Position numbers and translations under genes: made by a program
Part shown: positions 20,823-56,572 of the stretch, in pieces
How the letters are laid out: the number at the start of each line of letters is the position of its first letter
Position numbering within the stretch: the first letter of the stretch is position 1
Notes under the pieces: generated by a model
Database searches by the model: none
The model's input: the letters and a program-made list of their open reading frames with translations, nothing else
What the model was told of the DNA's origin: nothing
NCBI GenBank assembly: GCA_032718475.1
Contig: JAUCBJ010007358.1
Coordinates: 1-64,000 of the forward strand
Source of the DNA: Nemertoderma westbladi
Lineage: Eukaryota > Animalia > Xenacoelomorpha
Direction of reading: 5' to 3'
DNA length: 64,000 nucleotides

Positions 20823-20898
20823 ACTATTATTATTAATTAGCTATTGCTCACCTTGGGTATCTATAAGGGGGGGGGGGGGGGGGTGTGTTTGCGCTCAC

Positions 20899-21115
20899 CT
20901 TGGGTATCTACCAGGGGGGGAGTGTGTGTGCATTCCAGCTGAACTGCCACACAAGGACCCGGTTAGACTGGAACCCGCTATGGCAGTCATCGAGGCCGCG
21001 TCGTAATTTTCTTTCTCTTTCGGGAAGACCTGACTGCCGCTGGATTGGGTTGTCGCTCCCAGTGATACCTGGTCGCCATGGGCAACCCCGGCTGCTGAAG
21101 GCTTATAGGAATCTC
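20899..21115 (-). CDS. RNF19A: RNF19-like exon 9
   Basis: ttttag|GA...CCAAG|gtgagc. Encodes DSYKPS..DAASMTAIAGSSLTGSLCGS.., resembling the RNF19 Ser/Gly-rich motif. Confidence 0.85.
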
Positions 21116-21188
21116 CTAAAATAATAGGGGCTAGAATTAATAATATAATATCTTCAGATACTAAAATACAATGTCATGAGAAACTCTC

Positions 21189-22951
21189 TTGCAGTTACAT
21201 AAACTATCCTTTACTATTGCAGTCACATAAACTAACCTTTACTATTGCAGTCACATAAACTAACCTTTACTATTGCAGTCACATAAACTACCCTTTACTA
21301 TTGCAGTCACATAAACTATCCTTTACTATTGCAGTCACATAAACTAACCTTTACTATTGCAGTCACATAAACTAACCTTTACTATTGCAGTCACATAAAC
21401 TAACCTTTACTATTGCAGTCTCATAAACTAGCCTTTACTATTGCAGACACATAAACTAACCTTTACTATTGCAGACACATAAACTAACCTTTACTATTGC
21501 AGTCACATAAACTAGCCTTTACTATTGCAGTCACATAAACTAGCCTTTACTATTGCTGACACATAAACTAACCTTTACTATTGCAGTCACATAAACTACC
21601 CTTTACTATTGCAGTCACATAAACTAACCTTTACTATTGCAGTCACATAAACTAGCCTTTACTATTGCTGACACATAAACTAACCTTTACTATTGCAGTC
21701 ACATAAACTACCCTTTACTATTGCAGTCACATAAACTAACCTTTACTATTGCAGTCACATAAACTAGCCTTTACTATTGCAGTCACATAAACTAGCCTTT
21801 ACTATTGCTGACACATAAACTAACCTTTACTATTGCAGTCACATATACTACCCTTTACTATTGCAGTCACATAAACTAACCTTTACTATTGCTGACACAT
21901 AAACTAACCTTTACTATTGCTGACACATCAACTAACCTTTACTATGGCAGTCACATAAAGTAACCTTTACTATTGCAGACACATAAACTAGCCTTTACTA
22001 TTGCAGTCACATAAACTAACCTTTACTATTGCAGTCACATAAACTAGCCTTTACTATTGCAGACACATAAACTAGCCTTTACTATGGCAGTCACATAAAT
22101 TAACCTTTACTATTGCAGTCACATAAACTAACCTTTACTATTGCAGTCACATAAACTAGCCTTTACTATTGCAGACACATAAACTAGCCTTTACTATGGC
22201 AGTCACATAAACTAGCCTTTACTATTGCAGTCACATAAACTAACCTTTACTATTGCAGTCACATAAACTAGCCTTTACTATTGCAGTCACATAAACTAAC
22301 CTTTACTATTGCAGTCACATAAACTAGCCTTTACTATTGCAGACACATAAACTAGCCTTTACTATGGCAGTCACATAAATTAACCTTTACTATTGCTGAC
22401 ACATAAACTAACCTTTACTATTGCAGTCACATAAACTAACCTTTACTATTGCAGTCACATAAACTAACCTTTACTATTGCAGTCACATAAACTAGCCTTT
22501 ACTATTGCAGACACATAAACTAGCCTTTACTATGGCAGTCACATAAATTAACCTTTACTATTGCAGTCACATAAACTAGCCTTTACTATTGCAGACACAT
22601 AAACTAACCTTTACTATTGCAGTCACATAAACTAACCTTTACTATTGCAGTCACATAAACTAACCTTTAATATATTGTAGTTACATAAACTAACCTTTAC
22701 TATTGCAGACACATAAAGTAGCCTTTACTATTGCAGTCACATAAACTAGCCTTTACTATTGCAGTCACATAAACTAACCTTTACTATTGCAGTCACATAA
22801 ACTAGCCTTTACTATTGCAGTCACATAAACTAACCTTTACTATTGCTGACACATAAACTAACCTTTACTATTGCAGTCACATAAACTAGCCTTTACTATT
22901 GCAGTCACATAAACTAGCCTTTACTATTGCAGTCACATAAACTAACCTTTA
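21189..22951. repeat. 28-bp minisatellite (~63 copies) containing the exon 8 donor site
   Basis: Unit aaactaacctttactattgcagtcacat; minus strand reads TAAAG|GTTAGTTTATGTGACTGCAATAG. Confidence 0.97.
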
Positions 22952-23114
22952 TTTAGATAATAAGACGAATCCGGTGTATTCGGTGTCTGGTCCTCGAAGC
23001 CGAACCGAACTGCGGTGTCGGCTATAGAGGTGGTGACGTCACAACCGCCCGAACGACAAAGTGATATTGGGACCACCCCGTAGACATAGGCTAATAGAAT
23101 GGGGACCCCGATTC
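22947..23114 (-). CDS. RNF19A: RNF19-like exon 8
   Basis: tattag|GA...AAAG|gttagt. Encodes [25 protein letters not shown], a conserved RNF19 motif. Confidence 0.95.
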
Positions 23115-23210
23115 CTAATAATTGAATAAAGTGGAACAAATATAAAGTAAAGTAAAGTAATAACTGGAGTCCCTATCTATAACGGTTAGAGCGATGTTTT
23201 GTTTACGTAC

Positions 23211-23340
23211 CAACAGTAAGTGCAGCAATAACTGGAGTTACTATAACGCTGGCGGTGACACCTGCAGTTATAGCGATGTTCCGACGATGTTTAGAATGCC
23301 CAGATATTATTCGCAAAGTACTAGGAAACCGCGCGTGAAT
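23211..23340 (-). CDS. RNF19A: RNF19-like exon 7 (start of second hydrophobic segment)
   Basis: gtttag|ATT...GTTG|gtacgt. Encodes IHARFP..SKHRRNIAITAGVTASVIVTPVIAALTV. Confidence 0.93.
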
Positions 23341-23520
23341 CTAAACAAATAGAAAATAGTTTATTAGTATAATTATTAATTAAGCATTTCGCTTTATGAC
23401 AACAGGAAAATTAATATGATTGAAAATTAATTAATTAAAAATTAATGGACATTGAATGATACCAAAATATGTAAAACGTAAAAACTAAATTACGTTAAAG
23501 ATTGTCAAATAGAATAAAAA

Positions 23521-26500
23521 CAATGGAAGCAGTGGAAGCAATGGAAGCAGTGGAAGCAATGGAAGCAGTGGAAGCAGTACAAGCAGTGGAAGCAATGGAA
23601 GCAGTGGAAGCAATGGAAGCAGTGGAAGCAATGGAAGCAGTGGAAGCAATGGAGGAAGTGGAAGCAATGTAAGCAGCGGAAGCAGTGGAAGCAATGGAAG
23701 CAGTGGAAGCAATGGAAGCAGTGGAAGCAATGGAAGCAGTGGAAGCAATGGAAGCAGTGGAAGCAATGGAAGCAGTACAAGCAGTGGAAGCAATGGAAGC
23801 AGTGGAAGCAATGGAAGCAGTGGAAGCAATGGAAGCAGTACAAGCAGTGGAAGCAATGGAAGCAGTGGAAGCAATGGAAGCAGTGGAAGCAATGGAAGCA
23901 GTGGAAGCAATGGAAGCAGTGGAAGCAATGGAGGAAGTGGAAGCAATGTAAGCAGCGGAAGCAATGGAAGCAATGGAGGCAGTGGAAGCAATGTAAGCAG
24001 CGGAAGCAGTGGAAGCAATGGAAGCAGTGGAAGCAATAGAAGCAGTGGAAGCAATGGAGGCAGTGGAAGCAATGTAAGCAGCGGAAGCAGTGGAAGCAAT
24101 GGAGGCAGTGGAAGCAATGGAAGCAATGGAAGCATTAGAAGCAATGTAAGCAGCGGAAGCAATGTAAGCAATGGAAGCAGTGGAAGCAATGGAATAAGTG
24201 GAAGCAATGGAAGCAATGGAGGCAGTGGAAGCAATGTAAGGAGTGGAAGCAGTTGTGGAAGCAATGTAAGCAGTGGAAGCAATGGAAGCAATGTAAGCAG
24301 TGGAAGCAATGGAAGCAGTGGAATAAGTGGAAGCAATGGAAGCAATGGAGGCAGTGGAAGCAGTGGAAGCAATGGAAGCAGTGGAAGCAATGGAGGCAGT
24401 GGAAGCAATGGAGGAAGTGGAAGCAATGTAAGCAGCGGAAGCAGTGGAAGCAATGGAAGCAGTGGAAGCAATGGAAGCAATGGAGGCAGTGGAAGCAGTG
24501 GAAGCAATGGAAGCAGTGGAAGCAATGGAAGCAGTACAAGCAGTGGAAGCAATGGAAGCAGTGGAAGCAATGGAAGCAGTGGAAGCAATGGAAGCAGTGG
24601 AAGCAATGGAAGCAGTGGAAGCAATGGAAGCAGTACAAGCAGTGGAAGCAATGGAAGCAGTGGAACCAATGGAAGCAGTGGAAGCAATGGAAGCAGTACA
24701 AGCAGTGGAAGCAATGGAAGCAATGGAAGCAATGGAAGCAGTGGAAGCAATGGAAGCAGTGGAAGCAATGGAGGAAGTGGAAGCAATGGAGGCAGTGGAA
24801 GCAGTGGAAGCAATGGAAGCAGTGGAAGCAATGGAGGCAGTGGAAGCAATGTAAGCAGTGGAAGCAATGGAAGCAGTGGAAGCAATGGAGGAAGTGGAAG
24901 CAATGGAGGCAGTGGAAGCAATGTAAGCAGCGGAAGCAGTGGAAGCAATGTAAGCAGCGGAAGCAATGGAAGCAGTGGAAGCAATGGAAGCAGTGGAAGC
25001 AATGGACGCAATGTAAGCAATGGAAGCAGTGGAAGCAATGGAGGAAGTGGAAGCAATGTAAGCAGCGGAAGCAATGGAGGCAGTGGAAGCAATAGAAGCA
25101 GTGGAAGCAATGGAAGCAGTGGAAGCAGTGGAAGCAATGGAAGCAGTGGAAGCAATGGAGGAAGTGGAAGCAATGTAAGCAGCGGAAGCAGTGGAAGCAA
25201 TGGAAGCAGTGGAAGCAATGGAAGCAATGGAGGCAGTGGAAGCAATGGAAGCAGTGGAAGCAGTATAAGCAATGGAAGCAGTGGAAGCAATGGAAGCAGT
25301 GGAAGCAATGGAGGAAGTGGAAGCAATGTAAGCAGCGGAAGCAATGGAAGCAGTGGAAGCACTGGAAGCAATGGAAGCAGTGGAAGCAATGGAAGCAGTA
25401 TAAGCACTGGAAGCAATGTAAGCAGCGGAAGCAATGGAAGCAGTGGAAGCAATGGAAGCAATGTAAGCAATGGAAGCAGTGGAAGCAATGGAAGCAGTGG
25501 AAGCAATGGAGGCAGTGGAAGCAATGGAAGCAGTGGAAGCAGTGGAAGCAATGGAGGAAGTGGAAGCAATGTAAGCAGCGGAAGCAGTGGAAGCAATGTA
25601 AGCAATGGAAGCAGTGGAAGCAATGGAAGCAATGGAAGCAGTGGAAGCAGTATAAGCAGTATAAGCAATGGAAGCAATGTAAGCAATGGAAGCAGTGGAA
25701 GCAATGGAAGCAGTGGAAGCAATGGAAGCAGTGGAAGCAGTATAAGCAGTGGAAGCAATGGAGGAAGTGGAAGCAATGTAAGCAGCGGAAGCAGTGGAAG
25801 CAATGGAAGCAGTGGAAGCAATGGAAGCAATGAAGGCAGTGGAAGCAATGGAAGCAGTGGAAGCAGTATAAGCAGTATAAGCAATGGAAGCAATGTAAGC
25901 AATGGAAGCAGTGGAAGCAATGGAGGAAGTGGAAGCAATGTAAGCAGCGGAAGCAATGGAAGCAATGGAAACAGTGGAAGCAATGGAGGAAGTGGAAGCA
26001 ATGTAAGCAGCGGAAGCAGTGGAAGCAATGTAAGCAATGGAGGCAGTGGAAGCAATGGAGGCAGTGGAAGCAATGGAGGCAGTGGAAGCAGTGGAAGCAA
26101 TGGAAGCAGTGGAAGCAGTGGAAGCAATGGAAGCAGTGGAAGCAATGGAGGCAGTGGAAGCAATGTAAGTAGTGGAAGCAGTGGAAGCAATGGAGGCAGT
26201 GGAAGCAATGTAAGCAATGGAGGCAGTGGAAGCAATGGAAGCAGTGGAAGCAATGGAAGCAATGAAGCAGTGGAAGCAATGGAAGCAATGAAGCAGTGGA
26301 AGCAATGGAAGCAGTGGAAGCAATGGAAGCAATGGAGGCAGTGGAAGCAGTGGAAGCAATGGAAGCAGTACAAGCAGTGGAAGCAATGGGAGCAGTGGAA
26401 GCAATGGAAGCAGTGGAAGCAATAGAAGCAGTGGAAGCAATGGAGGAAGTGGAAGCAATGTAAGTAGTGGAAGCAATGTAAGCAATGGAGGCAGTGAAAG

Positions 26501-27118
26501 CAATGGAAGCAGTGGAAGCAATGGAAGCAGTACAAGCAGTGGAAGCAGTGGAAGCAATGGAAGCAATGGAAGCAGTACAAGCAGTGGAAGCAATGGGAGC
26601 AGTGGAAGCAATGGAAGCAGTGGAAGCAATAGAAGCAGTGGAAGCAATGGAGGAAGTGGAAGCAATGTAAGTAGTGGAAGCAGTGGAAGCAATGGAAGCA
26701 GTGGAAGCAGTATAAGCAGTATAAGCAATGGAAGCAATGTAAGCAATGGAAGCAGTGGAAGCAATGGAGGAAGTGGAAGCAATGTAAGCAGCGGAAGCAG
26801 TGGAAGCAATGGAAGCAGTGGAAGCAATGGAAGCAGTGGAAGCAATGGAGGAAGTGGAAGCAATGTAAGTAGTGGAAGCAGTGGAAGCAATGGAAGCAAT
26901 GGAGGAAGTGGAAGCAATGTAAGTAGTGGAAGCAGTGGAAGCAATGGAGGAAGTGGAAGCAATGGAAGCAGTGGAAGCAATGGAGGAAGTGGAAGCAATG
27001 TAAGTAGTGGAAGCAGTGGAAGCAATGGAAGCAATGGAGGAAGTGGAAGCAATGTAAGTAGTGGAAGCAATGGAAGCAATGTAAGCAGCGGAAGCAATGG
27101 AAGCAGCGGAAGCAATGG
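23521..27118. repeat. 9-bp-period minisatellite (~400 units) with higher-order variant patterns
   Basis: Alternating gcaatggaa / gcagtggaa, with variants such as gcaatgtaa, gcagcggaa and gcagtacaa. Confidence 0.97.
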
Positions 27119-27129
27119 TGCAGTGAGAC

Positions 27130-27561
27130 AGGGGGGGGGGGGGGGGGGGGGGCTGGACGCAAATTCAATCTTGGCAAATTAATATCCCGCCTCAGATGTT
27201 AAATTCTCAATTTAGGGAAAGGAGCAGGTTACAGTGGCACGTTATTTTAACCAAAACAATAAACTCAACACAATAGAACAGGTTACAGTTTTACTTTTGA
27301 GAGTAATCATCTTTTATTTGGGTCGAATTTCCCCTGGAGAGGGATGAATCTTTATTGCATCGAAAGTCCCCCCTATCTGGATTTTTGACCAAACTTCGGA
27401 ATCTTTCTAAACCTTTGACAGACCACATGTTAACCATGTTGGGTTTAATTTCTTGAATGATTAACCGCGTTATTAGCCATCAAAAATTAGACGACGACGA
27501 CAGATAACTCGTTAATGGTACCCCTATGCTAAGGCTTCGCTCACTTCGTGGCTTGCCCCAC
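27130..27561 (+). repeat. Dispersed repeat family (related copies ~13380-13645 inverted, ~61550-61830, ~63165-63230 inverted; 3' part also ~13050-13146)
   Basis: Shared aatttagggaaaggagcaggttacagtg..aaccaaaacaataaact block, and shared gctaaggct.cgc..acttcgtggct.gccccaca end. Class not determined. Confidence 0.7.
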
Positions 27562-27959
27562 AGCGGTAAGACAATAAACAACTTTATTGTATTCAGTCGT
27601 TGTATCCACTAAGACGACTGTGTACTCTATGGTAGGTAAGTCGTGGTGTAATTAACCTTATTATTAGATTTGTTTGGAATTAAAAATAAGAGCTCAATAA
27701 ACCACATTAAATTTGGCCCGTAAAACAAAACATAATTAAAGACAGTCGGAAACAAGTTTGGTTTGGCTACCTATTACAATTATAGTAACTCGGGATATAA
27801 TATAGTGTGGCGGGGGGGGGGTACTGGGTACAGTCCAAAATCTACAGTATAATAAGACATTACATACAATATAATACATAATAAATCATATTTACAATAT
27901 CGATATTACAATATAAACTAACAATTTATTTTACTAGTAATAATGTTTTACATTTCGAC

Positions 27960-28988
27960 ATGATATTTTTAGACCACATTGACGGTCGCAGACTGTGTGT
28001 CATAGGGGAGGTCCCGGAGAGGTGTCCTGTCTGCGACGACGCCCTTACGAGTTACTGCAGTCTATCGATGCCACCCTACAGTATCCCGAGCCCCTTCATT
28101 AACGCCCACCGAGCACCACCCTGCGCTCTGGTAATCCGCCCCACCGCCAACGACCAGACTTTCCTCCGCGGGTACACCCCGGGCGACCTGCTACACATCG
28201 GGGTCACTGACTCCAACCGAATGGTCTACAGTTTCAACCACAACGGAGTCGAGGTCGACACACTCAGTACCGAAGGACCACAGCCGTGGGCCTCGTGTGT
28301 GGTCGCCGATATACCAGCAGTTGGGTCTAACACCAACCTAGATAGAACACTCAGATACTCTCTGCACGACCCCCATTGGTTCAGTCACACATACAAACCA
28401 ACCAATCACAACTGCTTAGATTACATCGCGACAATGCTATTGGACACCGGGATACTTAAAGTTAACCACACAGCAGACAATCAATCCGATATGCTAAACT
28501 ATTTGTTAACTGAGGTAATTAAACCAAAGTTGACCCATTGCTACAAATATATACACCTTCACAGAGAGATCGAGGACTTTGGTTACTGTATAGTTGATGT
28601 GAGAAGTCACAACAGTAAACCAACTGGGACGGCGTGTCAAGAACACAGTAGAACTTCCTCAATGAGTTATCGATTGAAATCCAAGAGCGTTGGTTCGGTA
28701 AGTCTTGCCAATAGTTCTGGAGTTGATTTAAATGATTATGGAGGTAATTCTAACAGCAAAAGAAACACATCGCATGATAAACAGGTAAATGTTACTGGAG
28801 AGGCAGAGACTACGGATAGTTCGGGAGACTTACAAGAAATGGGAATGAGGCCGAACAATTTGAATTGCTTTGAAGTTGGGTCGAGGAATAGCTCCATAGT
28901 ATACGCCGATGTACATAGAAGTCTTAATGAAACTAATAGTGAAGACTTTAAGTTGTTTAATAAAACAGAAGATTCGACTTGGTTATAG
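27960..28988 (+). CDS. MKRN2OS: MKRN2 opposite-strand protein-like (DUF4796); intronless, nested antisense in RNF19 intron 6
   Basis: 342-aa ORF with CPVC..IPSPFINAH..CALVIRPT..TFLRGY..DLLHIGVTDSNRMVYSF..W..W...Y....HNCLDY, matching the motif order I recall for MKRN2OS. Low-complexity C-terminal extension. Confidence 0.85.
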   Translation: MIFLDHIDGRRLCVIGEVPERCPVCDDALTSYCSLSMPPYSIPSPFINAHRAPPCALVIRPTANDQTFLRGYTPGDLLHIGVTDSNRMVYSFNHNGVEVDTLSTEGPQPWASCVVADIPAVGSNTNLDRTLRYSLHDPHWFSHTYKPTNHNCLDYIATMLLDTGILKVNHTADNQSDMLNYLLTEVIKPKLTHCYKYIHLHREIEDFGYCIVDVRSHNSKPTGTACQEHSRTSSMSYRLKSKSVGSVSLANSSGVDLNDYGGNSNSKRNTSHDKQVNVTGEAETTDSSGDLQEMGMRPNNLNCFEVGSRNSSIVYADVHRSLNETNSEDFKLFNKTEDSTWL

Positions 28989-29144
28989 AAGTTGATTCTA
29001 TAAACATCGATCTACATTATTTACTAGCTGCGGAAAACCCCGCTGGGGAGCCTTAATATAAATTAGTGGGGGATGGGGGGGGGGGGGGGGGGGTCACCAT
29101 ACTGTGGGGCGAGTCACCATGCAGTACAATAAGGTACTACTCAC

Positions 29145-29307
29145 CCTTCTCCCAACGTATATTGGAACTCCTATAATCATTGCCGGTACCGCGACACCGG
29201 CTATTAAACCAATACCGACCGGCGCTCCAATTAAAGTTCCCAATTGCCATAAAATCTTCTTCTTTCGACTCCAAGGCTTCTTCCCCCAAAAAGTACAGCC
29301 GGAAGGA
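29145..29307 (-). CDS. RNF19A: RNF19-like exon 6 (first hydrophobic segment)
   Basis: tttcag|T...AGG|gtgagt. Encodes [55 protein letters not shown]. Confidence 0.97.
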
Positions 29308-29637
29308 CTGAAAATAAAAACGTAAAGAAAATATATGCGATACGAAATATATTTAATAAATAGCCGGCATAGCATTCTTAATGCACAATTCATTCGGGCT
29401 CGCGCATGCCATTAGGTGGAGGCAAATATATTTTTGTTACGCCAGCAGTCTGTAGTATCTTAATGTGCAGCTTCAATGCAGCAGGCCAATTATAGTTGTA
29501 GTAAATATAACGGGCTGAATAGTGAATGTATACAGATTGAAAATGAGCCTAAACCAGAAGATTCTGGTAAAATTGGGTTTGTAACAAGAAGAACAACCCA
29601 ATCCCGGATCGAATAAAACTTAAATAAATGTTCTCAC

Positions 29638-29779
29638 CTTAAATAATGCAGATCTGAGATTTCTTTCATACAGAGCCAACAGAATTCTAAAGAGCAGATC
29701 GCGCATGTCATATGGTTGCATGATCCATCGTCCATCTTTACAATAAAAGCATTGCAGCGGGGACATGACTTAATCTCAC
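29638..29779 (-). CDS. RNF19A: RNF19-like exon 5 (RING2/Rcat with catalytic Cys)
   Basis: ttacag|GT...TTAAG|gtgaga. Encodes [46 protein letters not shown]. Confidence 0.97.
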
Positions 29780-30002
29780 CTGTAATATAAAGTATAATCA
29801 ATATCACCTATGATATAAAGTTTCATGTCACAATTTCAGATAGTGGCACTCATTAACCGTAAATGAATAAAGTTTTCTCCAACGCTAATTTTTTGCATCG
29901 ATTATTTATTGTTTTCGTTAGAAATCACCGACAATTTCATACGTTAAATATATCATGTTTAAGGATCAGTACTACCACCTGGGTTGAAGTTCTCGGTCCA
30001 AG

Positions 30003-31563
30003 AGTTTGGCACAATGGACCCAAATATGTAGGCTATAGTTTGGCACAATGGACCCGGATATGTAGGCTATAGTTTGGTACAATGGACCCGGATATGTAGG
30101 CTATAGTGTGGCACAATGGACCCGGATATGTAGGCTATAGTTTGGCACAATGGACCCGGATATGTAGGCTATAGTTTGGCACAATGGACCCGGATATGTA
30201 GGCTATAGGTTAGCACAATGGACCCGGATATGTAGGCTATAGTTTGGCACAATGGACCCGGATATGTAGGCTATAGTTTGGCACAATGGACCCGGATATG
30301 TAGGCTATAGTTTGGCACAATGGACCCGGATATGTAGGCTATAGTTTGGCACAATGGACCCGGATATGTAGGCTATAGTTTGGCACAATGGACCCGGATA
30401 TGTAGGCTATAGCTTGGCTGAATGGACCCGGATATGCAGGCTATAGTTTGGCACAATGGACCCGGATATGTAGGCTATAGTTTGGCACAATGGACCCGGA
30501 TATGTAGGCTATAGTTTGGCACAATGGACCCGGATATGTAGGCTATAGTTTGGCACAATGGACCCGAATATGTAGGCTATAGTTTAGCTGAATGGACCCG
30601 GATATGTAGGCTATAGTTTGGCACAATGGACCCGGATATGTAGGCTATAGTTTGGCACAATGGACCCGGATATGTAGGCTATAGTTTGGCACAATGGACC
30701 CGGATATGTAGGCTATAGTTTGGCACAATGGACCCGGATATGTAGGCTATAGCTTGGCTGAATGGACCCGGATATGCAGGCTATAGTTTGGCACAATGGA
30801 CCCGGATATGTAGGCTATAGTTTGGCACAATGGACCCGGATATGTAGGCTATAGTTTGGCACAATGGACCCGGATATGTAGGCTATAGTTTGGCACAATG
30901 GACCCGAATATGTAGGCTATAGTTTAGCTGAATGGACCCGGATATGTAGGCTATAGTTTGGCACAATGGACCCGGATATGTAGGCTACAGTTTGGCACAA
31001 TGGACCCGGATATGTAGGGGTAGGCTATAGTTTGGCACAATGGACCCTGATATGTAGGGGTAGGCTATAGTTTGGCACAATGGACCCTGATATGTAGGCT
31101 ATAATTGGCACAATGGACCCGGATATGTAGGGGTAGGCTATAGTTTGGCACAATGGACCCTGATGTGTAGGCTATGGTTTGGCACAATGGACCCGGATAT
31201 GTAGGCTATAGTTTGGCACAATGGACCCGGATATGTAGGCTATAGTTTGGCACAATGGACCCGGATATGTAGGCTATAGTTTGGCTGAATGGACCCGGAT
31301 ATGTAGGCTATAGTTTGGCACAATGGACCCGGATATGTAGGCTATCGTTTGGCACAATGGACCCGGATATGTAGGCTATAGTTTGGCACACTGGAACCGG
31401 ATATGTAGGCTATAGTTTGGCTGAATGGACCCGGATATGTAGGCTATAGTTTGGCACAATGGACCCGGATATTTAGGTTACAGTTTGGCACAATGGACCC
31501 GGATATGTAGGGGTAGGCTATAGTTTGGCACAATGGACCCGGATATGTAGGCTATAGTTTGGC
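30003..31563. repeat. 34-bp minisatellite, ~46 copies
   Basis: Unit agtttggcacaatggacccggatatgtaggctat. Confidence 0.97.
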
Positions 31564-33452: not shown

Positions 33453-34370
33453 TACTACTACTAGGATCGGCATGCTGCATTGCAGCTGCATTTTTAAGAA
33501 TGCTGTGCCGGCTTGTCAACAAAATTGCACCGCCACAACTCCCTATCACCCATGACACTTGCTAGATCATCCGCATCTTCAAGGCCAGTGTCCTTTAAGA
33601 TGCGTCTCAAGAAAGTCATGGGCTGTCCACCATGCTTATTCACTCCATGAGGCTGCCAAAGTACAGAATTATGCACTGGCTGGTCCTCACGGCGAAAGCA
33701 ATGTCCTGCAAAGCGGAGGCGATTTTGTTCTAGTGTCAAGCTTGGGGGAACCAATGAGACACCTCCAATGTTATATAGTGTCTGGTTGGAGATGTGTGCA
33801 TTGTACTTGACACAATGAACCCGGCGTAGCATTCTTGTGAATGTGCCATCCAGAGATTTGGTGTCCTCAGCAGTTAGAGTCCAGCATGGACTCCCGTAGA
33901 GGAGTACTGGAACTACTGCTGCTCTAAATAATCGGACCTTAAGTTTCCGATTAATTCTCGGTGACTTCCAAATCCTGGAAAGCCTATTCAAGGCTGCCCA
34001 TGCCTTTCCCTTACGTATTCGAAGGTCCTCACCTGACTTCCGGATCCATGATCCCAGGTAACAGAAGTCGTCCACATGCTCAAGCATACCATCCTTTGAG
34101 CTTATGCTCATCCGATCAGAGACTTGCTGAGGACTTTCAAAGTTAACTGTCAAAATTTTGGTCTTTCTGGAGTTAATAAAAAGACCAACACTAGAATCAG
34201 CATGTTCTAATGAGCTGAGGAGCCGTTGGGCTCCCTCTAGTGATTCTGAGAGTACTCCTAAGTCATCAGCAAAGTCTAGATCAGTTAGGTACTTGGCAGG
34301 ATTTCCTCGACTTTTGGAGCCAGTAGGTGGAGTTATCATCACCCCATCATCATTATGATGATCTAAGGAT
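33452..34370 (-). mobile_element. RTE family 1 LINE, 5'-truncated
   Basis: ORF 33494-34342: LTDLDFADDL..FCYLGSWI..RLRFAGHCFRR. (TAG)n tail at 33452-33463. Confidence 0.92.
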
Positions 34371-41800: not shown

Positions 41801-41867
41801 CGCAACTGGTTTAATCGAATGCTTGAAGAAAGGTGGTTTTAATCTAACAAAATTTAAAAGCAATTAG
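35898..41867 (+). pseudogene. Bel/Pao gag-protease-RT polyprotein portion (1989 aa to premature stop)
   Basis: Gag core (FTGNPIEF..RLNYLLQY), three Cys/His knuckles (CIYCGGIGH..C, CTNCLGMH..C, CTKCGRNHHTLLH), protease AILDGGS, RT YYLPHH..RIVFDAAA..FYVDD. Confidence 0.92.
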
Positions 41868-44670
41868 CGGGAACTTCTTGATAAGCTTCCACAAACGAAG
41901 AGAGCTGACCCAAACCTAGACCTTGACCTCGACAAACTCCCTACAACCCGGGCATTAGGTGTTAAGTGGGACACGGAGGCAGATACCTTCAGTATTAAAG
42001 TCAGCCCAAGAAAGTTTCCAACTACAAAACGGAATTGTTTATCTAGTTTGGCATCTATTTATGACAAATTAGGATTAGTTGCTCCTGTATTACTTATCGG
42101 CAAGAGATTTATGCGGGAGTTGTCCATATCAACCCCTAGCTGGGATACCCAATTGGATGTTGAGTTTCTTACACGTTGGAACGAATGGAGTCGCCAGTTG
42201 GACTGTTTGAACGAACTCTCATTACCCCGTGCTTATTTTTCGAATCGCTTGAGTTCAGATCGCATAGAACTCCATATATTTTGTGATGCCTGTGAGACTG
42301 GATTAGGAGCTGTTGCATACCTGCGTCAACTTAGGAGAGCTTTGACAGAAGAAACACCAAATACCATTATCAATGAAAGTTGCAAACAACCGCAATATGA
42401 AGTATCGACAGCATTTGTACTGGCAAAAACCAGAACTGCGCGAAAGAAGTTTGTTTCTATACCCCGAAAGGAGTTGCAATCTTGTGTTCTTGCCACTAGA
42501 ATGTCAATCATAATACATGATGAAGTAGAACTATTTATAAATGCGACACATTTTTGGAGTGATTCCAGAACGTCGTTACAATACATAGCAAACCAGGATA
42601 AAAGGTACCCAACCTACATAATTAATAGAGTCGGTGAAATCGTCAAGAGTACTAATCCAAATCAATGGCATCATGTGAAGGGAATAGACAATGTAGCTGA
42701 CATGGCCAGTCGTGGGGCGTTCCCACTAGACTTCATTGATAAGTTTGACCTATGGTCAAAAGGACCCCAATTCTTACAAACTGATGAACTAGAATGGCCA
42801 AATGCTACTCAGCAATATACTGGTAAGGACTTGGATCCTACTGCTGAAATAAAATCTAAACGCAAAGTTAATGACATGGGCCCACGAGACGATATAGAAC
42901 CTATCCCTACTAGTTCGATAGACTATGCACAATTACATTCAATTGATGTGATGATAACAATCGAAACACCTACAAATACCACAAATCTGTTACTAGACAA
43001 GCTGCTTTCATATTATGGAGATTGGATTCCTTTGATTAGAACTGTTGCTTGGTTGGTGCGTTTTAAAATGTGGTATATTCGCTCATTTCGCTTAAGACGT
43101 AGTCTTAAGCAAAGGTTAATACCAAAGAAGAAGATTAAGGTACTACCGAAATCATTATGTTCTAATGCAAAGTCAGTCAATGATAAAGAAGGAACAGTGA
43201 AGCCTGTGAACAAACCCAAGAAAAAACAAACGATACAAGTTGTGAAACGCGATGTGTTAAACTCTCTGCCAAAACCAGCACCAAAATCACAGTATCCTCT
43301 AACATTAGCCGAGGTGCAGGATGCACGTGTCCTTGTATTGAAATATTCACAACAAAAGACATATCCAACTTAACTAGCAAGTTTGAAAGTGAACAAACCC
43401 ATACACAGAAACAGCAACATATTTAAGTTATGTCCCTTTCTAGGAGAGGATGGCCTAATACGTATGAACAGCCGATTGGTGAAGACACCAACAAACCCTG
43501 ATATGGCACAACCCATAATCCTATCCTCCAGTTGCCCAGTGACCAGGTTGATAGTGAGGTATACACATTCAGAGAACATGCACACAGGCAGAGATCATAC
43601 TTTGGCGATAGTAAGACAAATTTATTGGATTGTGGGGGGACCTGCAAAGCTCGCAACCCAACGCCACTTAACCAAATAATGGCACCTCTACCCATCGATC
43701 GCATTACAGCATTTGAACCCTGCTTTACCTACACTGGTGTTGATTATTGGGGATTTATGCTTGTACAACAGGGCAGAAGATCTGTGAAGATGTGGGGCGT
43801 AATTTTTACTTGCCTAGTCTCTCGAGCCGTTGCACTAGACTTAGCGGAAGATCTATCTGCAAGCACATTCATAAACTGCTTCCGTAGATTTGTCTGCCAA
43901 TATGGAAATGTAAAACTACTCAGATCCGACAATGGAACAAATTTCGTCGGAGCCGAAACCGAATTATCTGACGCAATCGACCACTGGGACGTTTCACGAA
44001 TTCAACACAACTTAGGCCCTCAAACGAAATTTGAGTTCCAAGTACCTTATGCACCTCACACATCTGGAGTTTGGGAACGATTGAATCGGCCTGCTAAGGA
44101 CGCTTTACGTGTTGCCCTAGGAAACAAGCTAGTCACCGAAGGCGTAGTGAGAACAGCACTCGCTGAGGCAGCAAGAATTATGAACTCAAGACCGCTCTGT
44201 AAAGTAACAGATGATCCGACTGCCGACCAGGTACTGACACCAAACGACTTGTTATTACGTAAGATAGTTTCACCTTGCCCTGGGGTATATGAGGAGGGTG
44301 ATATATATTGTCGAAAGACCTGGAAGCAGGCACAGGCATTGACTGAAATATTCTGGGATAGATGGCTTCTAGAATACTTACCGCTGTTGCGAGAAAGACA
44401 AAAGTGGTTCACTAAGAAAAGAAACCTACAACCAGGCGACCTTGTACTTCAAATGACAGACACAAAGAATAGACGAACGTGGATCACCGGGGTGATAGAC
44501 TCTGTAAATCTAGGATCCGACGGTTGTGTTAGATCAGCACAAGTTAGGTGTGGCGGCACAATCTACTCTAGACATGTCACAAAGCTATGCTTGCTCGAGG
44601 CGACAATTACAGAGGAAGAAACTGACGCAAAACGAGCAAATGAGGACTCAGCAGATTCGTCTGTAAATTC
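41868..44670 (+). pseudogene. Bel/Pao RNase H and integrase portion (broken)
   Basis: In frame after the stop: RALGVKWD..LHIFCDA..SIPRKEL..FWSDS..NVADMASRG. Integrase: TGVDYWG..SDNGTNF..GVWERL..NSRPL..FWDRWLLEYLPLL. Confidence 0.9.
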
Positions 44671-46040
44671 GACTCCCCAATACTTACTAGACATTGTTAG
44701 AGACCCCGACCCAACCAGACTCCCCAATACTTACTAGACATTGTTAGAGACCCCGACCCAACCAGACTCCCCAATACTTACTAGACATTGTTAGAGACCC
44801 CGACCCACCCAGACTCCCCAATACTTACTAGACATTGTTAGAGACCCCGACCCAACCAGACTCCCCAATACTTACTAGACATTGTTAGAGACCCCGACCC
44901 AACCAGACTCCCCAATACTTACTAGACATTGTTAGAGACCCCGACCCACCCAGACTCCCCAATACTTACTAGACATTGTTAGAGACCCCGACCCAACCAG
45001 ACTCCCCAATACTTACTAGACATTGTTAGAGACCCCGACCCACCCAGACTCCCCAATACTTACTAGACATTGTTAGAGACCCCGACCCAACCAGACTCCC
45101 CAATACTTACTAGACATTGTTAGAGACCCCGACCCAACCAGACTCCCCAATACTTACTAGACATTGTTAGAGACCCCGACCCAACCAGACTCCCCAATAC
45201 TTACTAGACATTGTTAGAGACCTCGACCCAACCAGACTCCCCAATACTTACTAGACATTGTTAGAGACCCCGACCCAACCAGACTCCCCAATACTTACTA
45301 GACATTGTTAGAGACCCCGACCCACCCAGACTCCCCAATACTTACTAGACATTGTTAGAGACCCCGACCCAACCAGACTCCCCAATACTTACTAGACATT
45401 GTTAGAGACCCCGACCCACCCAGACTCCCCAATACTTACTAGACATTGTTAGAGACCCCGACCCAACCAGACTCCCCAATACTTACTAGACATTGTTAGA
45501 GACCCCGACCCAACCAGACTCCCCAATACTTACTAGACATTGTTAGAGACCCCGACCCAACCAGACTCCCCAATACTTACTAGACATTGTTAGAGACCCC
45601 GACCCAACCAGACTCCCCAATACTTACTAGACATTGTTAGAGACCCCGACCCAACCAGACTCCCCAATACTTACTAGACATTGTTAGAGACCCCGACCCA
45701 ACCAGACTCCCCAATACTTACTAGACATTGTTAGAGACCCCGACCCAACCAGACTCCCCAATACTTACTAGACATTGTTAGAGACCCCGACCCAACCAGA
45801 CTCCCCAATACTTACTAGACATTGTTAGAGACCTCGACCCAACCAGACTCCCCAATACTTACTAGACATTGTTAGAGACCCCGACCCACCCAGACTCCCC
45901 AATACTTACTAGACATTGTTAGAGACCCCGACCCAACCAGACTCCCCAATACTTACTAGACATTGTTAGAGACTCCGATCCAGCTAGACTCCCCAATACT
46001 TACTAGACATTGTTAGAGACTCCGATCCAGCTAGACTCCC
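44671..46040. repeat. 47-bp minisatellite (~29 copies) made of the exon 4 3' end plus its donor site
   Basis: Unit ctccccaatacttactagacattgttagagaccccgacccaaccaga; minus strand reads ..GTCTCTAACAATGTCTA|GTAAGTATTGGGGAG. Confidence 0.97.
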
Positions 46041-46415
46041 TTGTATGCGGCCACCAAAAGCGTCTCGCCCCCTTCTCGCTGCTTCGCACGTCATATTTGG
46101 GTGCCAGAATTGTTTGCAATGGTAACAGAAGCAGGTGTCGCACCCCGGACGTCCACACACAATGCGGGGACAACTGGCGCATCCGGTTGCGATAACAGCG
46201 TAACCGCAATCGGGTGTGGGGCACCATCGGCAGTCCGGGTCCGTAGCCAGAAGTCGACGGAGGGTGAACTCCTCGTACTTAAGGAATACCGAGGAGGAAT
46301 CCACGCCGAGGATCGCCTTTATATCGTTGGGATGGAGACGTTCCGAGCATTCCGGACAGCTGATGTTGGTACGGCTCTCCGAGATCTCGATACGGATGTA
46401 TTGCTGGATACAGTC
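46004..46415 (-). CDS. RNF19A: RNF19-like exon 4 (end of RING1 plus IBR)
   Basis: ctttag|GAC...TCTA|gtaagt. Encodes [85 protein letters not shown]. Confidence 0.97.
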
Positions 46416-49400
46416 CTAAAGGGGGGGGGGGGGGGGGGGGTGTAAATGGAAGGATACAGTCCGAAATGGGGGATTCCCGATTGTAAATGGAAGGGTACAA
46501 TCCTAAAGGTGGGAGTGTAAATTAAAGGATGCAGCCCTAAAGGGGGGGGGGGGGGAGTGTAAATGGAAGGATACAGTCCTAAAGGGGGGAGTGTAAATGG
46601 AAGGATACAGTCCTAAAGGGGGGGGGGGGGGGAGTGTGAATGGAAGGATACAGTCCTAAATAGGGGAGTGTAAATGGAAGGATACAGTCCTAAGGGGGGG
46701 GGGGGTAAATTGAAGGATACAGTCCTAAATAGGGGAGTGTAAATGGAAGGATACAGTCCTAAAGGAGGGAGTGTAAATGGAAGGATACAGTCCTAAATAG
46801 GGGAGTGTAAATGGAAGGATACAGTCCTAAATAGGGGAGTGTAAATGGAAGGATACAGTCCTAAAGGTGGGAGTGTAAATGGAAGGATACAGTCCTAAAG
46901 GGTGGGGGGGGGGGGAGTGTAAATGGAAGGATACAGTCCTAAATAGGGGAGTGTAAATGGAAGGATACATTCCTAAATGGGGGAGTGTAAATGGAAGGAT
47001 ACAGTCCTAAATAGGGGAGTGTAAATGGAAGGATACAGTCCTAAATAGGGGAGTGTAAATGGAAGGATACAGTCCTAAAGGAGGGAGTGTAAATGGAAGG
47101 ATACAGTCCTAAATAGGGGAGTGTAAATGGAAGGATACAGTCCTAAATAGGGGAGTGTAAATGGAAGGATACAGTCCTAAAGGAGGGAGTGTAAATGGAA
47201 GGATACAGTCCTAAATAGGGGAGTGTAAATGGAAGGATACAGTCCTAAATAGGGGAGTGTAAATGGAAGGATACAGTCCTAAATAGGGGAGTGTAAATGG
47301 AAGGATACAGTCCTAAATAGGGGAGTGTAAATGGAAGGATACAGTCCTAAATAGGGGAGTGTAAATGGAAGGATACAGTCCTAAATAGGGGAGTGTAAAT
47401 GGAAGGATACAGTCCTAAAGATGGGAGTGTAAACGAAAGGATGCAGCCTTAAAAGGGGGGAGGGGGGGGGGGGGGTGTAAATGGAAGGATACAGTCCTAA
47501 AGGTGGGAGTGTAAATGGAAGGATACAGTCCTAAAGGTGGGAGTGTAAATGGAAGGATACAGTCCTAAATAGGGGAGTGTAAATGGAAGGATACAGTCCT
47601 AAAGGAGGGAGTGTAAATGGAAGGATACAGTCCTAAATAGGGGAGTGTAAATGGAAGGATACAGTCCTAAAGATGGGAGTGTAAACGAAAGGATGCAGCC
47701 TTAAAAGGGGGGAGGGGGGGGGGGGGTGTAAATGGAAGGATACATTCCTAAAGGAGGGAGTGTAAATGGAAGGATACAATCCGAAATGGGTGATTGTAAA
47801 TGGAAGGATACAGTCCTAAAGGTGGGAGTGTAAACGAAAGGATGCAGCCTTAAAGGGGGGGGGGGGGGGGGGGGGTGTAAATGGAAGGATACATTCCTAA
47901 AGGAGGGAGTGTAAATGGAAGGATACAGTCCTAAATAGGGGAGTGTAAATGGAAGGATACAGTCCTAAATAGGGGAGTGTAAATGGAAGGATACAGTCCT
48001 AAATAGGGGAGTGTAAATGGAAGGATACAGTCCTAAAGATGGGAGTGTAAACGAAAGGATGCAGCCTTAAAAGGGGGGAGGGGGGGGGGGGGGTGTAAAT
48101 GGAAGGATACAGTCCTAAAGGAGGGAGTGTAAATGGAAGGATACAGTCCTAAATAGGGGAGTGTAAATGGAAGGATACAGTCCTAAATAGGGGAGTGTAA
48201 ATGGAAGGATACAGTCCTAAATAGGGGAGTGTAAATGGAAGGATACAGTCCTAAAGGGGGATAGTAAATGGAAGGATACCCGATACAGTCCTAAAGGGGG
48301 GAGTGTAAATGGAAGGATACAGTCCTAAATAGGGGAGTGTAAATGGAAGGATACAGTCCTAAAGGAGGGAGTGTAAATGGAAGGATACAGTCCTAAATAG
48401 GGGAGTGTAAATGGAAGGATACAGTCCTAAATAGGGGAGTGTAAATGGAAGGATACAGTCCTAAATAGGGGAGTGTAAATGGAAGGATACAGTGGAAGGA
48501 TACAGTCCGAAATGGGGGGATTGTAAATGGAAGGATACAGTCCTAAAGGAGGGAGTGTAAATGGAAGGATACAGTCCTAAATAGGGGAGTGTAAATGGAA
48601 GGATACAGTCCTAAAGATGGGAGTGTAAACGAAAGGATGCAGCCTTAAAAGGGGGGAGGGGGGGGGGGTGTAAATGGAAGGATACATTCCTAAAGGAGGG
48701 AGTGTAAATGGAAGGATACAATCCGAAATGGGTGATTGTAAATGGAAGGATACAGTCCTAAAGGTGGGAGTGTAAACGAAAGGATGCAGCCTTAAAGGGG
48801 GGGGGGGGGGGGGGGGTGTAAATGGAAGGATACATTCCTAAAGGAGGGAGTGTAAATGTAGGGGGTGTAAATGGAAGGATACAGTCCTAAAGATGGGAGT
48901 GTAAACGAAAGGATGCAGCCTTAAAAGGGGGGAGGGGGGGGGGGGTGTAAATGGAAGGATACAGTCCTAAAGGAGGGAGTGTAAATGGAAGGATACAGTC
49001 CTAAATAGGGGAGTGTAAATGGAAGGATACAGTCCTAAATAGGGGAGTGTAAATGGAAGGATACAGTCCTAAATAGGGGAGTGTAAATGGAAGGATACAG
49101 TCCTAAAGGGGGATAGTAAATGGAAGGATACAGTCCTAAAGGGGGGAGTGTAAATGGAAGGATACAGTCCTAAATAGGGGAGTGTAAATGGAAGGATACA
49201 GTCCTAAAGGGGGGGGGAGTGTAAATGGAAGGATACAGTCCTAAATAGGGGAGTGTAAATGGAAGGATACATTCCTAAAGGAGGGAGGGTAAATGGAAGG
49301 ATACAGTCCTAAAGATGGGAGTGTAAATGGAAGGATACAGTCCTAAATAGGGGAGTGTAAATGGAAGGATACATTCCTAAAGGAGGGAGTGTAAATGGAA

Positions 49401-52385
49401 GGATACAGTCCTAAATAGGGGAGTGTAAATGGAAGGATACAGTCCTAAAGGGGGGGGGAGTGTAAATGGAAGGATACAGTCCTAAATAGGGGAGTGTAAA
49501 TGGAAGGATACATTCCTAAAGGAGGGAGGGTAAATGGAAGGATACAGTCCTAAAGATGGAGTGTAAATGGAAGGATACAGTCCTAAATAGGGGAGTGTAA
49601 ATGGAAGGATACATTCCTAAAGGAGGGAGTGTAAATGGAAGGATACAGTCCTAAATAGGGGAGTGTAAATGGAAGGATACATTCCTAAAGGAGGGAGTGT
49701 AAATGGAAGGATACAGTCCTAATAGGGGAGTGTAAATGGAAGGATATAGTCCTAAAGGGGGGGGGGAGTGTAAATGGAAGGATACAGTCCTAAATAGGGG
49801 AGTGTAAATGGAAGGATACATTCCTAAAGGAGGGAGGGTAAATGGAAGGATACAGTCCTAAAGATGGGAGTGTAAATGGAAGGATACAGTCCTAAATAGG
49901 GGAGTGTAAATGGAAGGATACATTCCTAAAGGGAGGGAGGGTAGAATGGAAGGATACAGTCCTAAAGATGGGAGTGTAAATGGAAGGATACAGTCCTAAA
50001 GGGGGGGGGGAGTGTAAATGGAAGGATACAGTCCTAAATAGGGGAGTGTAAATGGAAGGATACATTCCTAAAGGAGGGAGGGTAAATGGAAGGATACAGT
50101 CCTAAAGATGGGAGTGTAAATGGAAGGATACAGTCCTAATGGGGGGAGTGTAAATGGAAGGATACAGTCCTGAAGGGGGGAGTAAATGGAAGGATACAGT
50201 CCTAAAGGATGGAGTGTAAATGGAAGGATACAGTCCTAAAGGGGGGGAGTGTAAATGGAAGGATACAGTCCTAAAGGGGGGGGGGAGTGTAAATGGAAGG
50301 ATACAGTCCTAAATAGGGGAGTGTAAATGGAAGGATACAGTCCTAAATAGGGGAGTGTAAATGGAAGGATACATTCCTAAAGGAGGGAGGGTAAATGGAA
50401 GGATACAGTCCTAAAGATGGGAGTGTAAATGGAAGGATACAGTGCTAAAGGGGGGAGTGTAAATGGAAGGATACAGTCCTAAATAGGGGAGTGTAAATGG
50501 AAGGATACAGTCCTAAATAGGGGAGTGTAAATGGAAGGATACAGTCCCAAATAGGGGAGTGTAAATGGAAGGATACAGTCCTAAATAGGGGAGTGTAAAT
50601 GGAAGGATACAGTCCTAAATAGGGGAGTGTAAATGGAAGGATACAGTCCTAAATAGGGGAGTGTAAATGGAAGGATACAGTCCTAAAGGTGGGAGTGTAA
50701 ATGGAAGGATACAGTCCTAAATAGGGGAGTGTAAATGGAAGGATACAGTCCTAAATAGGGGAGTGTAAATGGAAGGATACAGTCCTAAATAGGGGAGTGT
50801 AAATGGAAGGATACAGTCCTAAATAGGGGAGTGTAAATGGAAGGATACAGTCCTAAATAGGGGAGTGTAAATGGAAGGATACAGTCCTAAATAGGGGAGT
50901 GTAAATGGAAGGATACAGTCCTAAATAGGGGAGTGTAAATGGAAGGATACAGTCCGAAATGGGGGATTGTAAATGGAAGGATACAGTCCTAAAGATGGGA
51001 GTGTAAATGGAAGGATACAGTCCTAAAGATGGGAGTGTAAATGGAAGGATACAGTCCTAAATAGGGGAGTGTAAATGGAAGGATACAGTCCTATATAGGG
51101 GAGTGTAAATGGAAGGATACAGTCCTAAATAGGGGAGTGTAAATGGAAGGGTACAGTCCTAAATAGGGGAGTGTAATTGGAAGGATACAGTCCTAAATAG
51201 GGGAGTGTAAATGGAAGGATACAGTCCTAAAGATGGGAGTGTAAATGGAAGGATACAGTCCTAAATAGGGGAGTGTAAATGGAAGGATACAGTCCTAAAT
51301 GGGGGAGTGTAAATGGAAGGATACAGTCCTAAATAGGGGAGTGTAAATGGAAGGATACAGTCCTAAATAGGGGAGTGTAAATGGAAGGATACAGTCCTAA
51401 AGGGGGGGAGTGTAAATGGAAGGATTCAGTCCTAAATAGGGGAGTGTAAATGGAAGGATACAGTCCTAAATAGGGGAGTGTAAATGGAAGGATACAGTCC
51501 TAAAGGGGGGGAGTAAATTGAAGGATACAGTCCTAAAGATGGGAGTGTAAATGGAAGGATACAGTCCTAAATAGGGGAGTGTAAATGGAAGGATACAGTC
51601 CTAAATAGGGGAGTGTAAATGGAAGGATACAGTCCTAAAGGTGGGAGTGTAAATGGAAGGATACAGTCCTAAAGGGTGGGGGGGGGGGGAGTGTAAATGG
51701 AAGGATACAGTCCTAAATAGGGGAGTGTAAATGGAAGGATACAGTCCTAAATAGGGGAGTGTAAATGGAAGGATACAGTCCTAAATAGGGGAGTGTAAAT
51801 GGAAGGATACAGTCCTAAATAGGGGAGTGTAAATGGAAGGATACAGTCCTAAATAGGGGAGTGTAAATGGAAGGATACAGTCCTAAAGGTGGGAGTGTAA
51901 ATGGAAGGATACAGTCCTAAAGGGGGGGGGGGGGGGGAATGTAAATGGAAGGATACAGTCCTAAATAGGGGAGTGTAAATGGAAGGATACATTCCTAAAG
52001 AGGGGAGTGTAAATGGAAGGATACATTCCTAAAGAGGGGAGTGTAAATGGAAGGATACAGTCCTAAAGAGGGGTGTAAATGGAAGGATACACTCCTAAAG
52101 GGGAGGGGGGAGGGAGAGTAAATAGAAGGATACACCCCTAAGCGGGGGGGGAGTAAATGGAAGGATACAGTCCTAAATAGGGAAGTGTAAATGGAAGGAT
52201 ACAGTCCTAAATAGGGGAGTGTAAATGGAATGATACACTCCTAAAAGGGGGGGGGGGTGTAAATGGAAGGATACAGTCCTAAAGGGGGGAGTGTAAATGG
52301 AAGGATACAGTCCTAAAGGGGGGGGGGAGTGTAAATGGAAGGATACAGTCTTAAAGAGGTGGGGGGGTGTAAATGGAAGGGACAG
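46406..52385. repeat. 34-bp minisatellite (~170 copies) made of the exon 4 acceptor site; fills intron 3
   Basis: Unit tgtaaatggaaggatacagtcctaaataggggag; minus strand reads CTCCCCTATTTAG|GACTGTATCCTTCCATTTACA. Confidence 0.97.
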
Positions 52386-52407
52386 TTAGTGCGGACTATA
52401 AACTAAC

Positions 52408-52586
52408 CATGCACGACCTGTGTTCGCAGGTAACAACATTAGCGAAGTTGCTCTTGGGTTGATTGGTTAGACATAAAGGGCATTCATCGGTAGCTGATGG
52501 AGAGAATGTCTCGGTACGGGAAGGTTTCCGGCTCTTAGAGCTACTGATTGATGGCGGGTGGGTGGAATATGTAGAAGACAGTTCGC
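52408..52586 (-). CDS. RNF19A: RNF19-like exon 3 (start of RING1)
   Basis: taacag|GC...TGCATG|gttagt. Encodes ..DECPLCLTNQPKSNFANVVTCEHRSCM. Confidence 0.95.
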
Positions 52587-56555: not shown

Positions 56556-56572
56556 CTATAAAATAAATGCAG

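What the first reader, a model, noticed from the sequence alone, without database searches (positions are those of the whole stretch)
20846..52407. Splice-junction-seeded tandem amplification: one gene repeatedly copies its own splice sites into its introns
Seen: at least 5 of the 18 splice junctions of the RNF19-like gene are tandemly duplicated, with units straddling the exon/intron border and the array extending into the intron. They are the exon 4 acceptor (34 bp, ~170 copies), exon 4 donor (47 bp, ~29), exon 8 donor (28 bp, ~63), exon 9 donor (2) and exon 5 acceptor (2). The units are unrelated to each other, so these are independent events, and the coding frame stays intact. Established: tandem duplication is a recognised route to intron growth and gain, and duplicated splice sites normally compete. 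Inference: this lineage has a mutational process biased to exon borders (for example R-loop or repair slippage), and/or a way to pick the authentic site among dozens to hundreds of near-identical decoys. The two-copy cases look like early stages of the same process. I cannot tell whether this has been described for this taxon.
Basis: partly seen in the sequence, partly recalled or inferred. Interest (0 to 1): 0.88.

Follow-up and report, generated by a model that had tools for sequence, protein, structure and literature searches.

The report
Splice-junction "mirage" minisatellites in RNF19 gene
In an animal ubiquitin-ligase gene, five exon edges have been copied head-to-tail with their splice signals into the neighbouring introns (one about 170 times), a kind of repeat already named "mirage" in lancelets and known from human genes, and the cell likely uses only the real site next to each exon.

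Summary
Observation confirmed. A ten-exon RNF19-like gene (minus strand, intact 633-aa frame) has tandem copies straddling 5 of 18 junctions: exon 4 acceptor (34 bp, about 170), exon 4 donor (47 bp, 29), exon 8 donor (28 bp, 63), exon 9 donor (2), exon 5 acceptor (2). I add an eroded echo of the exon 7 end and a 16-bp daughter array of the exon 4 donor unit. The kind is known: amphioxus "mirages" and human F7/CBS/ABCA7 donor VNTRs; this scan also noted it before on other DNA (8 listed notes, unchecked). Every decoy leads to a premature stop. One spliced contig uses the exon-proximal exon 5 acceptor, and its length leaves room for at most 123 extra bases upstream. Best reading: ordinary short tandem duplications in once-tiny introns (57-93 nt), which selection lets grow only intron-ward, with proximal-site choice and decay of wrong transcripts hiding the decoys. 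Against a pure null: junction hits (5, about 0.3-1.1 expected) stay in excess after transposons are stripped, though the gene was chosen after the fact. Read-level support for the three large arrays and the organism's identity remain open. New member of a known kind; the 170-copy acceptor array is a good test case.

The parts
16809..62307 (-). RNF19-like RBR ubiquitin ligase gene, 10 coding exons, 633 aa
   Evidence: intron 5 spliced out in a contig of run X3
46406..52385 (-). Exon 4 acceptor array: 34-bp unit (24 intron + 10 exon bases), about 170 copies, 99% of intron 3; the true (last) copy has the longest unbroken pyrimidine run (23) of all 165 AG sites and the unit before it has lost its AG
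52351..52407 (-). 57-base unique remnant of intron 3 with the donor and the CTAAC branch-like motif (52391-52385), 5.97 kb from the true acceptor
44671..46040 (-). Exon 4 donor array: 47-bp unit (37 exon + 10 intron bases), 29 copies; copies 1-2 equal the exon, copies 3-29 differ from it at about 4 bases
31563..33452 (-). 16-bp array (about 118 copies), daughter of the exon-derived part of the 47-bp unit, no splice site, now 11.2 kb away behind a Pao/BEL element and a LINE
   Evidence: core found 27 times in the 47-mer array, 70 times here, nowhere else in the window
29772..29821 (-). Exon 5 acceptor doublet, period 28, 19 of 22 identical; upstream copy keeps its AG
   Evidence: present without gaps in a contig of run X2; proximal AG used in the spliced contig of X3
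23146..23248 (-). Echo of the last about 38 bases of exon 7 (23248-23215) inside intron 7 (23184-23146); decoy donor absent.
   Evidence: (0 of 1000 shuffles)
21189..22951 (-). Exon 8 donor array: 28-bp unit (5 exon + 23 intron bases), 63 copies, 96% of intron 8
20846..20931 (-). Exon 9 donor doublet, second donor 47 bases downstream

Best explanation
These are 'mirage' minisatellites: five 28-47 bp units that span an exon edge are tandemly repeated into the intron, likely born as ordinary short tandem duplications in introns that were then probably only 57-93 bases long, and the decoy sites are likely ignored or their products destroyed. Steps. (1) Shown: the genome region makes tandem arrays freely; 20.9 of 43.6 kb of intron is tandem repeat and six of nine large arrays hold no junction. 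(2) Inferred: birth by slippage or flap realignment at short microhomologies; one is visible at the 34-mer (ACTGT..CC on both edges), none at the 28-mer. (3) Inferred: a unit across a junction regenerates one complete exon edge, so it is tolerated; selection removes anything that grows into the exon, so arrays extend only into the intron, and the copy anchored in the exon cannot be lost. (4) Inferred: unequal exchange expands and homogenises the array, leaving divergent edge units; retroelements then insert into it. (5) Partly shown: the exon-proximal site is used. For donors this follows the first-site rule shown for human F7. For the acceptor, exon definition helped by the longest pyrimidine run and the loss of the nearest AG is the likely cause. 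All decoys give premature stops, so nonsense-mediated decay would remove leaks.
For: Five junctions by two tests. Introns 3, 7 and 8 shrink to 57, 57 and 73 bases without their repeats, and both 57-base remnants have GT, CTAAC and a pyrimidine-rich end; a duplication born in them would straddle a junction in 68%, 100% and 39% of placements. The 16-mer daughter array cut off by a Pao element and a LINE suggests arrays came before 9.8 kb of intron 4 insertions. Two other arrays grow from copies of one interspersed element. Premature stop for 164 of 164 other AGs in intron 3, 28 of 28, 62 of 62 and 1 of 1 decoy donors and the E5 decoy. The E3/E4 join keeps the RING1 spacing of all 8 homologues shown. 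A 2572-base spliced contig ends its match exactly at the proximal E5 acceptor and has 1015 bases upstream against 892 predicted coding bases. Precedent: PMC3087553, PMC3902484, PMC1557585, PMC5954066.
Against: The excess at junctions is not removed by the null: 5 observed against 0.46 (all introns, P 7e-5) or 0.95-1.11 (transposons stripped, P 0.002-0.004); an event-based test with a 2-3-fold retention advantage still gives P 0.001-0.016. The discount for choosing this gene after the fact cannot be computed from one window. Short introns raise the conditional, not the per-base, chance of straddling. Microhomology is clear for one unit only. Site use was seen directly at one of the five junctions; the 123-base slack does not by itself exclude the acceptors at -87 and -121. 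All nine large arrays lie inside the gene (P about 0.015), which hints at a role of transcription. Ancestral intron lengths are reconstructed from this sequence, not from relatives.
Confidence: 0.6

Rival explanations
1. Same repeats, but tandem duplications are born preferentially at exon edges (polymerase pausing or R-loops at splice sites, or nucleosome-phased lagging-strand flaps).
For: Earlier AI notes report the pattern in other invertebrate genomes (unchecked, not independent support).
Against: One gene, chosen because it shows the pattern. No fixed breakpoint register. Sense-strand G-richness is mixed: +0.89 and +0.23 for the donor arrays, -0.77 for the acceptor array. Six of nine large arrays hold no junction.
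Confidence: 0.27
2. The arrays are functional: decoy sites tune RNF19 output by sending part of the transcripts to decay, or act as recursive-splicing points.
For: Every decoy gives a premature stop; in human ABCA7 one-unit retention occurs and array length affects splicing (PMC5954066, passages). The 28-mer has AG|GT in 34 of 63 units.
Against: Premature stops follow trivially from intron sequence behind a donor; 29 of 63 28-mer donors and some acceptors have decayed; the 34-mer has no GT after its AG; no conservation data.
Confidence: 0.06
3. The large copy numbers are assembly artefacts.
For: No read-level test of the three large arrays is in hand.
Against: 54 distinct pieces among 154 in intron 3, higher-order periods of 102-147 bases and divergent edges; the E5 doublet is present in a second sample; a daughter array lies 11 kb away.
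Confidence: 0.05

Closest known systems
Amphioxus 'mirage' minisatellites (Adh3, globins BflGb6 and BflGb9, troponin C, PGBD5; PMC3087553 section 16 read, PMC3902484 one passage read; Canestro 2002 not held, known only through their citation)
   Same: Tandem units spanning exon-intron boundaries, both donor and acceptor sides, units of 10-160 bp, many but not all keeping AG/GT, divergent edge units, normal splicing reported.
   Different: Scale: about 170 acceptor copies filling 99% of a 6-kb intron against 3-6 units in BflGb6. The host does not appear to be a lancelet: no named protein above 73% identity among the 120 listed of 1002 hits.
Human donor-spanning VNTRs: F7 intron 7 (37 bp), 6-16, CBS intron 13, lamin B2, PDGF (PMC1557585, abstract and Introduction read); ABCA7 intron 18 (25 bp, up to about 427 units; PMC5954066, passages read)
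   Same: First unit spans the donor; identical pseudo-donors follow; first site used, sometimes with leakage to the next one or two.
   Different: One array per gene there, five or six events in one gene here; those cases are donor-side only.
Microhomology-mediated tandem duplication (PMC13167724, passages read)
   Same: Short duplications at microhomologies, mostly neutral, depleted from coding sequence.
   Different: The paper's text has no occurrence of 'exon', 'intron' or 'splice'; microhomology is clear here for one unit only.
Intron gain by tandem duplication (Rogers model, as summarised in PMC3087553)
   Same: Duplication of splice-site-bearing sequence.
   Different: Here existing introns grow; no new intron or exon is seen to arise from a repeat unit.

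Membership tests
mirage minisatellite | Tandem unit spans an exon-intron boundary | tested here: met
   5 of 18 junctions
mirage minisatellite | Donor or acceptor side may be duplicated, copies lie in the intron | tested here: met
   3 donors, 2 acceptors
mirage minisatellite | Unit of minisatellite size (10-160 bp in amphioxus) | tested here: met
   28, 28, 34, 47, 47 bp
mirage minisatellite | Many but not all copies keep AG or GT | tested here: met
   148 TTTAG|G among about 170 units; 34 of 63 GT; 29 of 29 GT
mirage minisatellite | Homogenised interior, divergent edge units | tested here: met
   first 34-mer unit and the one before the exon lack the AG; 47-mer copies 1-2 differ from 3-29
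mirage minisatellite | Normal splicing is not disturbed | tested here: inconclusive
mirage minisatellite | Length polymorphism or somatic instability | not tested
   no read data on the large arrays
F7-type donor VNTR | First unit spans the donor, identical pseudo-donors follow | tested here: met
   28 identical decoys at E4, 29 identical 9-base decoys among 62 at E8
F7-type donor VNTR | Only the most upstream donor is used | tested here: inconclusive
   indirect only: E4 decoys would repeat 31-mers in an unbroken contig; E8 +28, +56 and E9 +47 not excluded this way
Intron gain by tandem duplication | A new intron or exon is formed from the duplicated units | tested here: not met
   each intron keeps a unique donor or acceptor end; no repeat-derived exon in the frame; intron positions in relatives could not be compared

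The most novel reading that the evidence does not exclude
Tandem duplications are born several-fold more often at exon edges than elsewhere, as a general property of invertebrate genomes, and are a main engine of intron growth; and the spliceosome here finds the last of about 165 acceptor AGs although the intron's only full CTAAC motif lies 6 kb upstream, in front of all decoys, which would show acceptor choice from the exon side rather than by scanning from that branch point.
Probability: 0.25. Interest if true: 0.7.

Novelty: new member of a known kind. Interest (0 to 1): 0.36.

Why it matters
The kind of repeat is known, so the finding does not open a new class. Its value is as an extreme natural experiment. 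Intron 3 is a 57-base intron end followed by about 170 near-identical acceptors, the mirror of the F7 donor case that was used to work out donor choice; I found no acceptor array of this size in the held papers (searches; limited library). The gene also shows what look like stages of one cycle (doublet, large array, daughter array, eroded echo without its donor). Whether junctions are truly favoured sites of birth is an open and cheaply testable genome-wide question. Practically, such arrays can mislead gene annotation and read mapping.

Tried and rejected
No whole genome is held, so the genome-wide test could not be run; the scan holds no other notes on this genome. No RNA holder listed by record; run X3, labelled DNA by guess, behaves as RNA (spliced joint, no cover of unique intron bins). 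No read-level test of the three large arrays or of the E4, E8 and E9 junctions is in hand. Taxon: 120 listed homologues are at most 73% identical; the nested gene found no hit among 46 candidates; a quick tree of 31 rows (30 picked of 121 proteins held) puts the protein on a long branch with two other long branches, which is uninformative (careful search unfinished). Rfam: 0 matches. Branch-point spacing as the discriminator (TTTAC 16 bases before most decoy AGs, 28 before the true one) was considered but is weak, because RNA-supported intron 5 also has TTTAC at 16 bases. Weakening of the nearest decoys (two GC donors at E8) is within chance (29 of 63 lack GT). R-loop bias: sense-strand G-richness is mixed. 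Recursive splicing: no GT behind the 34-mer AG. cDNA-guided origin: units contain intron bases and breakpoints are not at the junction. Short introns as the whole explanation: rejected as insufficient. Canestro 2002 is not held. No supplements were opened; those of PMC3087553 hold the mirage alignments and could bear on copy-number comparisons.

Full report
Gene. The window holds a ten-exon gene on the minus strand from 62307 to 16809, with nine GT-AG introns and one open frame of 633 residues. Exon 4 carries an IBR domain and finds 1002 proteins, the named ones among the 120 listed being RNF19-type RBR ligases at 64-73% identity. The joins E3/E4, E5/E6, E6/E7 and E7/E8 fall in gap-free conserved sequence in the 8 homologues shown. 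The host is an animal without a close named relative in that list; a quick tree left it on a long branch, so the taxon is open.

Observation. Intron 3 (5992 bases) is a 57-base unique start followed by about 170 copies of a 34-base unit made of 24 intron and 10 exon bases. It holds 165 AGs beyond its first 20 bases, 148 in the context of the true acceptor. The exon 4 donor is repeated 29 times in a 47-base unit (37 exon bases), all with the same nine-base site. The exon 8 donor is repeated 63 times in a 28-base unit (5 exon bases); 34 keep GT. The exon 9 donor has one copy 47 bases on. The exon 5 acceptor has one degenerate copy 28 bases upstream (19 of 22; 0 of 5000 shuffles).

Additions. The last 38 or so bases of exon 7 are echoed inside intron 7 without a second donor (0 of 1000 shuffles); I read this as an old straddling duplication whose decoy donor was deleted, but a non-tandem copy is equally possible. 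The 16-base array at 31563-33452 descends from the exon-derived part of the 47-mer: its core occurs only in these two arrays (27 and 70 times). A Pao/BEL-type element and a LINE lie between them, which suggests the array came first. Without tandem and interspersed repeats introns 3, 7 and 8 measure 57, 57 and 73 bases, and both 57-base remnants carry a CTAAC motif.

Which site is used. In one search (4 of 6 listed runs laid on 27160-29990) run X3 gave a 2572-base contig at depth 1313 that skips intron 5 exactly and matches 29145-29307 and 29638-29779. It stops at the exon-proximal exon 5 acceptor, so the decoy there is not used in this dominant form. It has 1015 bases upstream of exon 5 against 892 for exons 1-4 and 1252 downstream of exon 6, which would end 42 bases after an ATTAAA. 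This leaves no room for the arrays. Use of any of the first three exon 4 decoy donors, or of acceptors 240 or more bases upstream, would repeat 31-mers and should break such a contig (that contigs break at repeated 31-mers is my inference from how they are built). The nearer acceptors (-87 to -197), the first two exon 8 decoys and the exon 9 decoy are not excluded by this argument. All decoys give premature stops: 164 of 164, 28 of 28, 62 of 62, 1 of 1 and the exon 5 copy. The exon 9 decoy's stop lies only 43 bases before the last junction and might escape decay (50-base rule recalled). The true exon 4 acceptor has the longest unbroken pyrimidine run of the 165 (23 bases; three others have 20-22) and the unit before it has lost its AG. 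The exon 5 doublet is present without gaps in a contig of run X2. The large arrays have no read-level check; their internal variety (54 distinct pieces of 154, higher-order periods) argues against an artefact.

Is it more than chance? The introns are 48% tandem repeat (20.9 of 43.6 kb), and six of nine large arrays hold no junction; two of those grow from one interspersed element. After collapsing arrays, 2.6% of intron positions lie in a duplicated unit, so 0.46 of 18 junctions are expected against 5 (P 7e-5). Stripping transposons raises this to 0.95-1.11 (P 0.002-0.004). An event-based test gives 0.28-0.70 expected, and P 0.001-0.016 on transposon-free sequence if straddling events are kept 2-3 times longer (the factor is my assumption). 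Given birth in introns 3, 7 or 8, straddling is expected in 39-100% of placements, but that does not remove the per-base excess. So my starting null does not fully account for this gene. The main discount is that the gene was picked for showing the pattern, and one window cannot measure that. All nine large arrays are inside the gene (P about 0.015).

Mechanism. Shown: anatomy, frame, premature stops, use of one proximal acceptor. Inferred: birth as short tandem duplications (microhomology visible at the 34-mer only; general mechanism in PMC13167724, passages), one-way growth and anchoring by selection, expansion by unequal exchange, first-site choice at donors, exon-side choice at acceptors, decay of leaks. 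Against splice-site-guided birth: no fixed breakpoint register and mixed strand composition. I give this 0.6, biased birth 0.27, function 0.06, artefact 0.05.

What is known. PMC3087553 (section 16 and passages) describes tandem repeats spanning exon-intron boundaries, donor and acceptor side, in amphioxus globins and Adh3, names them mirages and reports normal splicing. PMC3902484 (one passage) adds troponin C and PGBD5. PMC1557585 (abstract and Introduction) lists five human genes with donor-spanning minisatellites and shows that identical downstream donors do not compete in F7. PMC5954066 (passages) has a donor-containing VNTR of up to about 427 units with one-unit retention. PMC2812944 (outline and section 9) covers minisatellites changing gene structure. 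Searches turned up no genome-wide test of junction enrichment and no acceptor array of this size; the library lacks most subscription papers. The scan's own notes list eight similar cases in other genomes; they are unchecked and came after I had reached the mirage reading.

Verdict. Real, correctly described, and a new member of a known kind. What remains of interest is the size of the acceptor array and the unexplained excess at junctions. Interest 0.36.

Noticed in passing
window 27885-28988 (+): Nested antisense gene in intron 6: open frame of 367 codons with DUF4796_C (MKRN2OS-like is my recalled label); covered by a 941-base contig in run X3.
   Followed up: partly
window 35892-44670 (+): Pao/BEL-type retroelement (DUF1759, DUF5641) in intron 4, with stops in its long frame; no pair of long terminal repeats found, its 3' coding end abuts the 47-mer array.
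   Followed up: partly
window 56575-57302: 14-bp array ends 19 bases before the exon 2 acceptor; its unit holds a CTCAT branch-like motif, so it may be an array of branch points.
   Followed up: no
window 17507-19023 and 30003-31563: A 42-bp and a 34-bp array grow in different registers from two copies of the same interspersed element (shared 75-base flank, 85%).
   Followed up: partly
window 23521-27118 and 58605-61051: Two further large intronic arrays (9/18-bp and 30/32-bp) with no junction in the unit.
   Followed up: no
window 19518-20821, 53006-56283, 33453-34420, 10786-11477: Recent LINE fragments, pairs 95-97% identical, with short TAG-repeat tails.
   Followed up: no
window 15600-16043 (-): THAP-domain frame downstream of the gene, probably a DNA transposon remnant.
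   Followed up: no
window 6200-6729, 11596-12276, 62908-63556: Fold-back elements with long inverted arms, two with 10-12 bp internal repeats.
   Followed up: no
window 44671-46040: The four bases by which 47-mer copies 3-29 differ from the exon make them richer in G runs; G runs could favour the upstream donor (recalled from mammals, untested).
   Followed up: no
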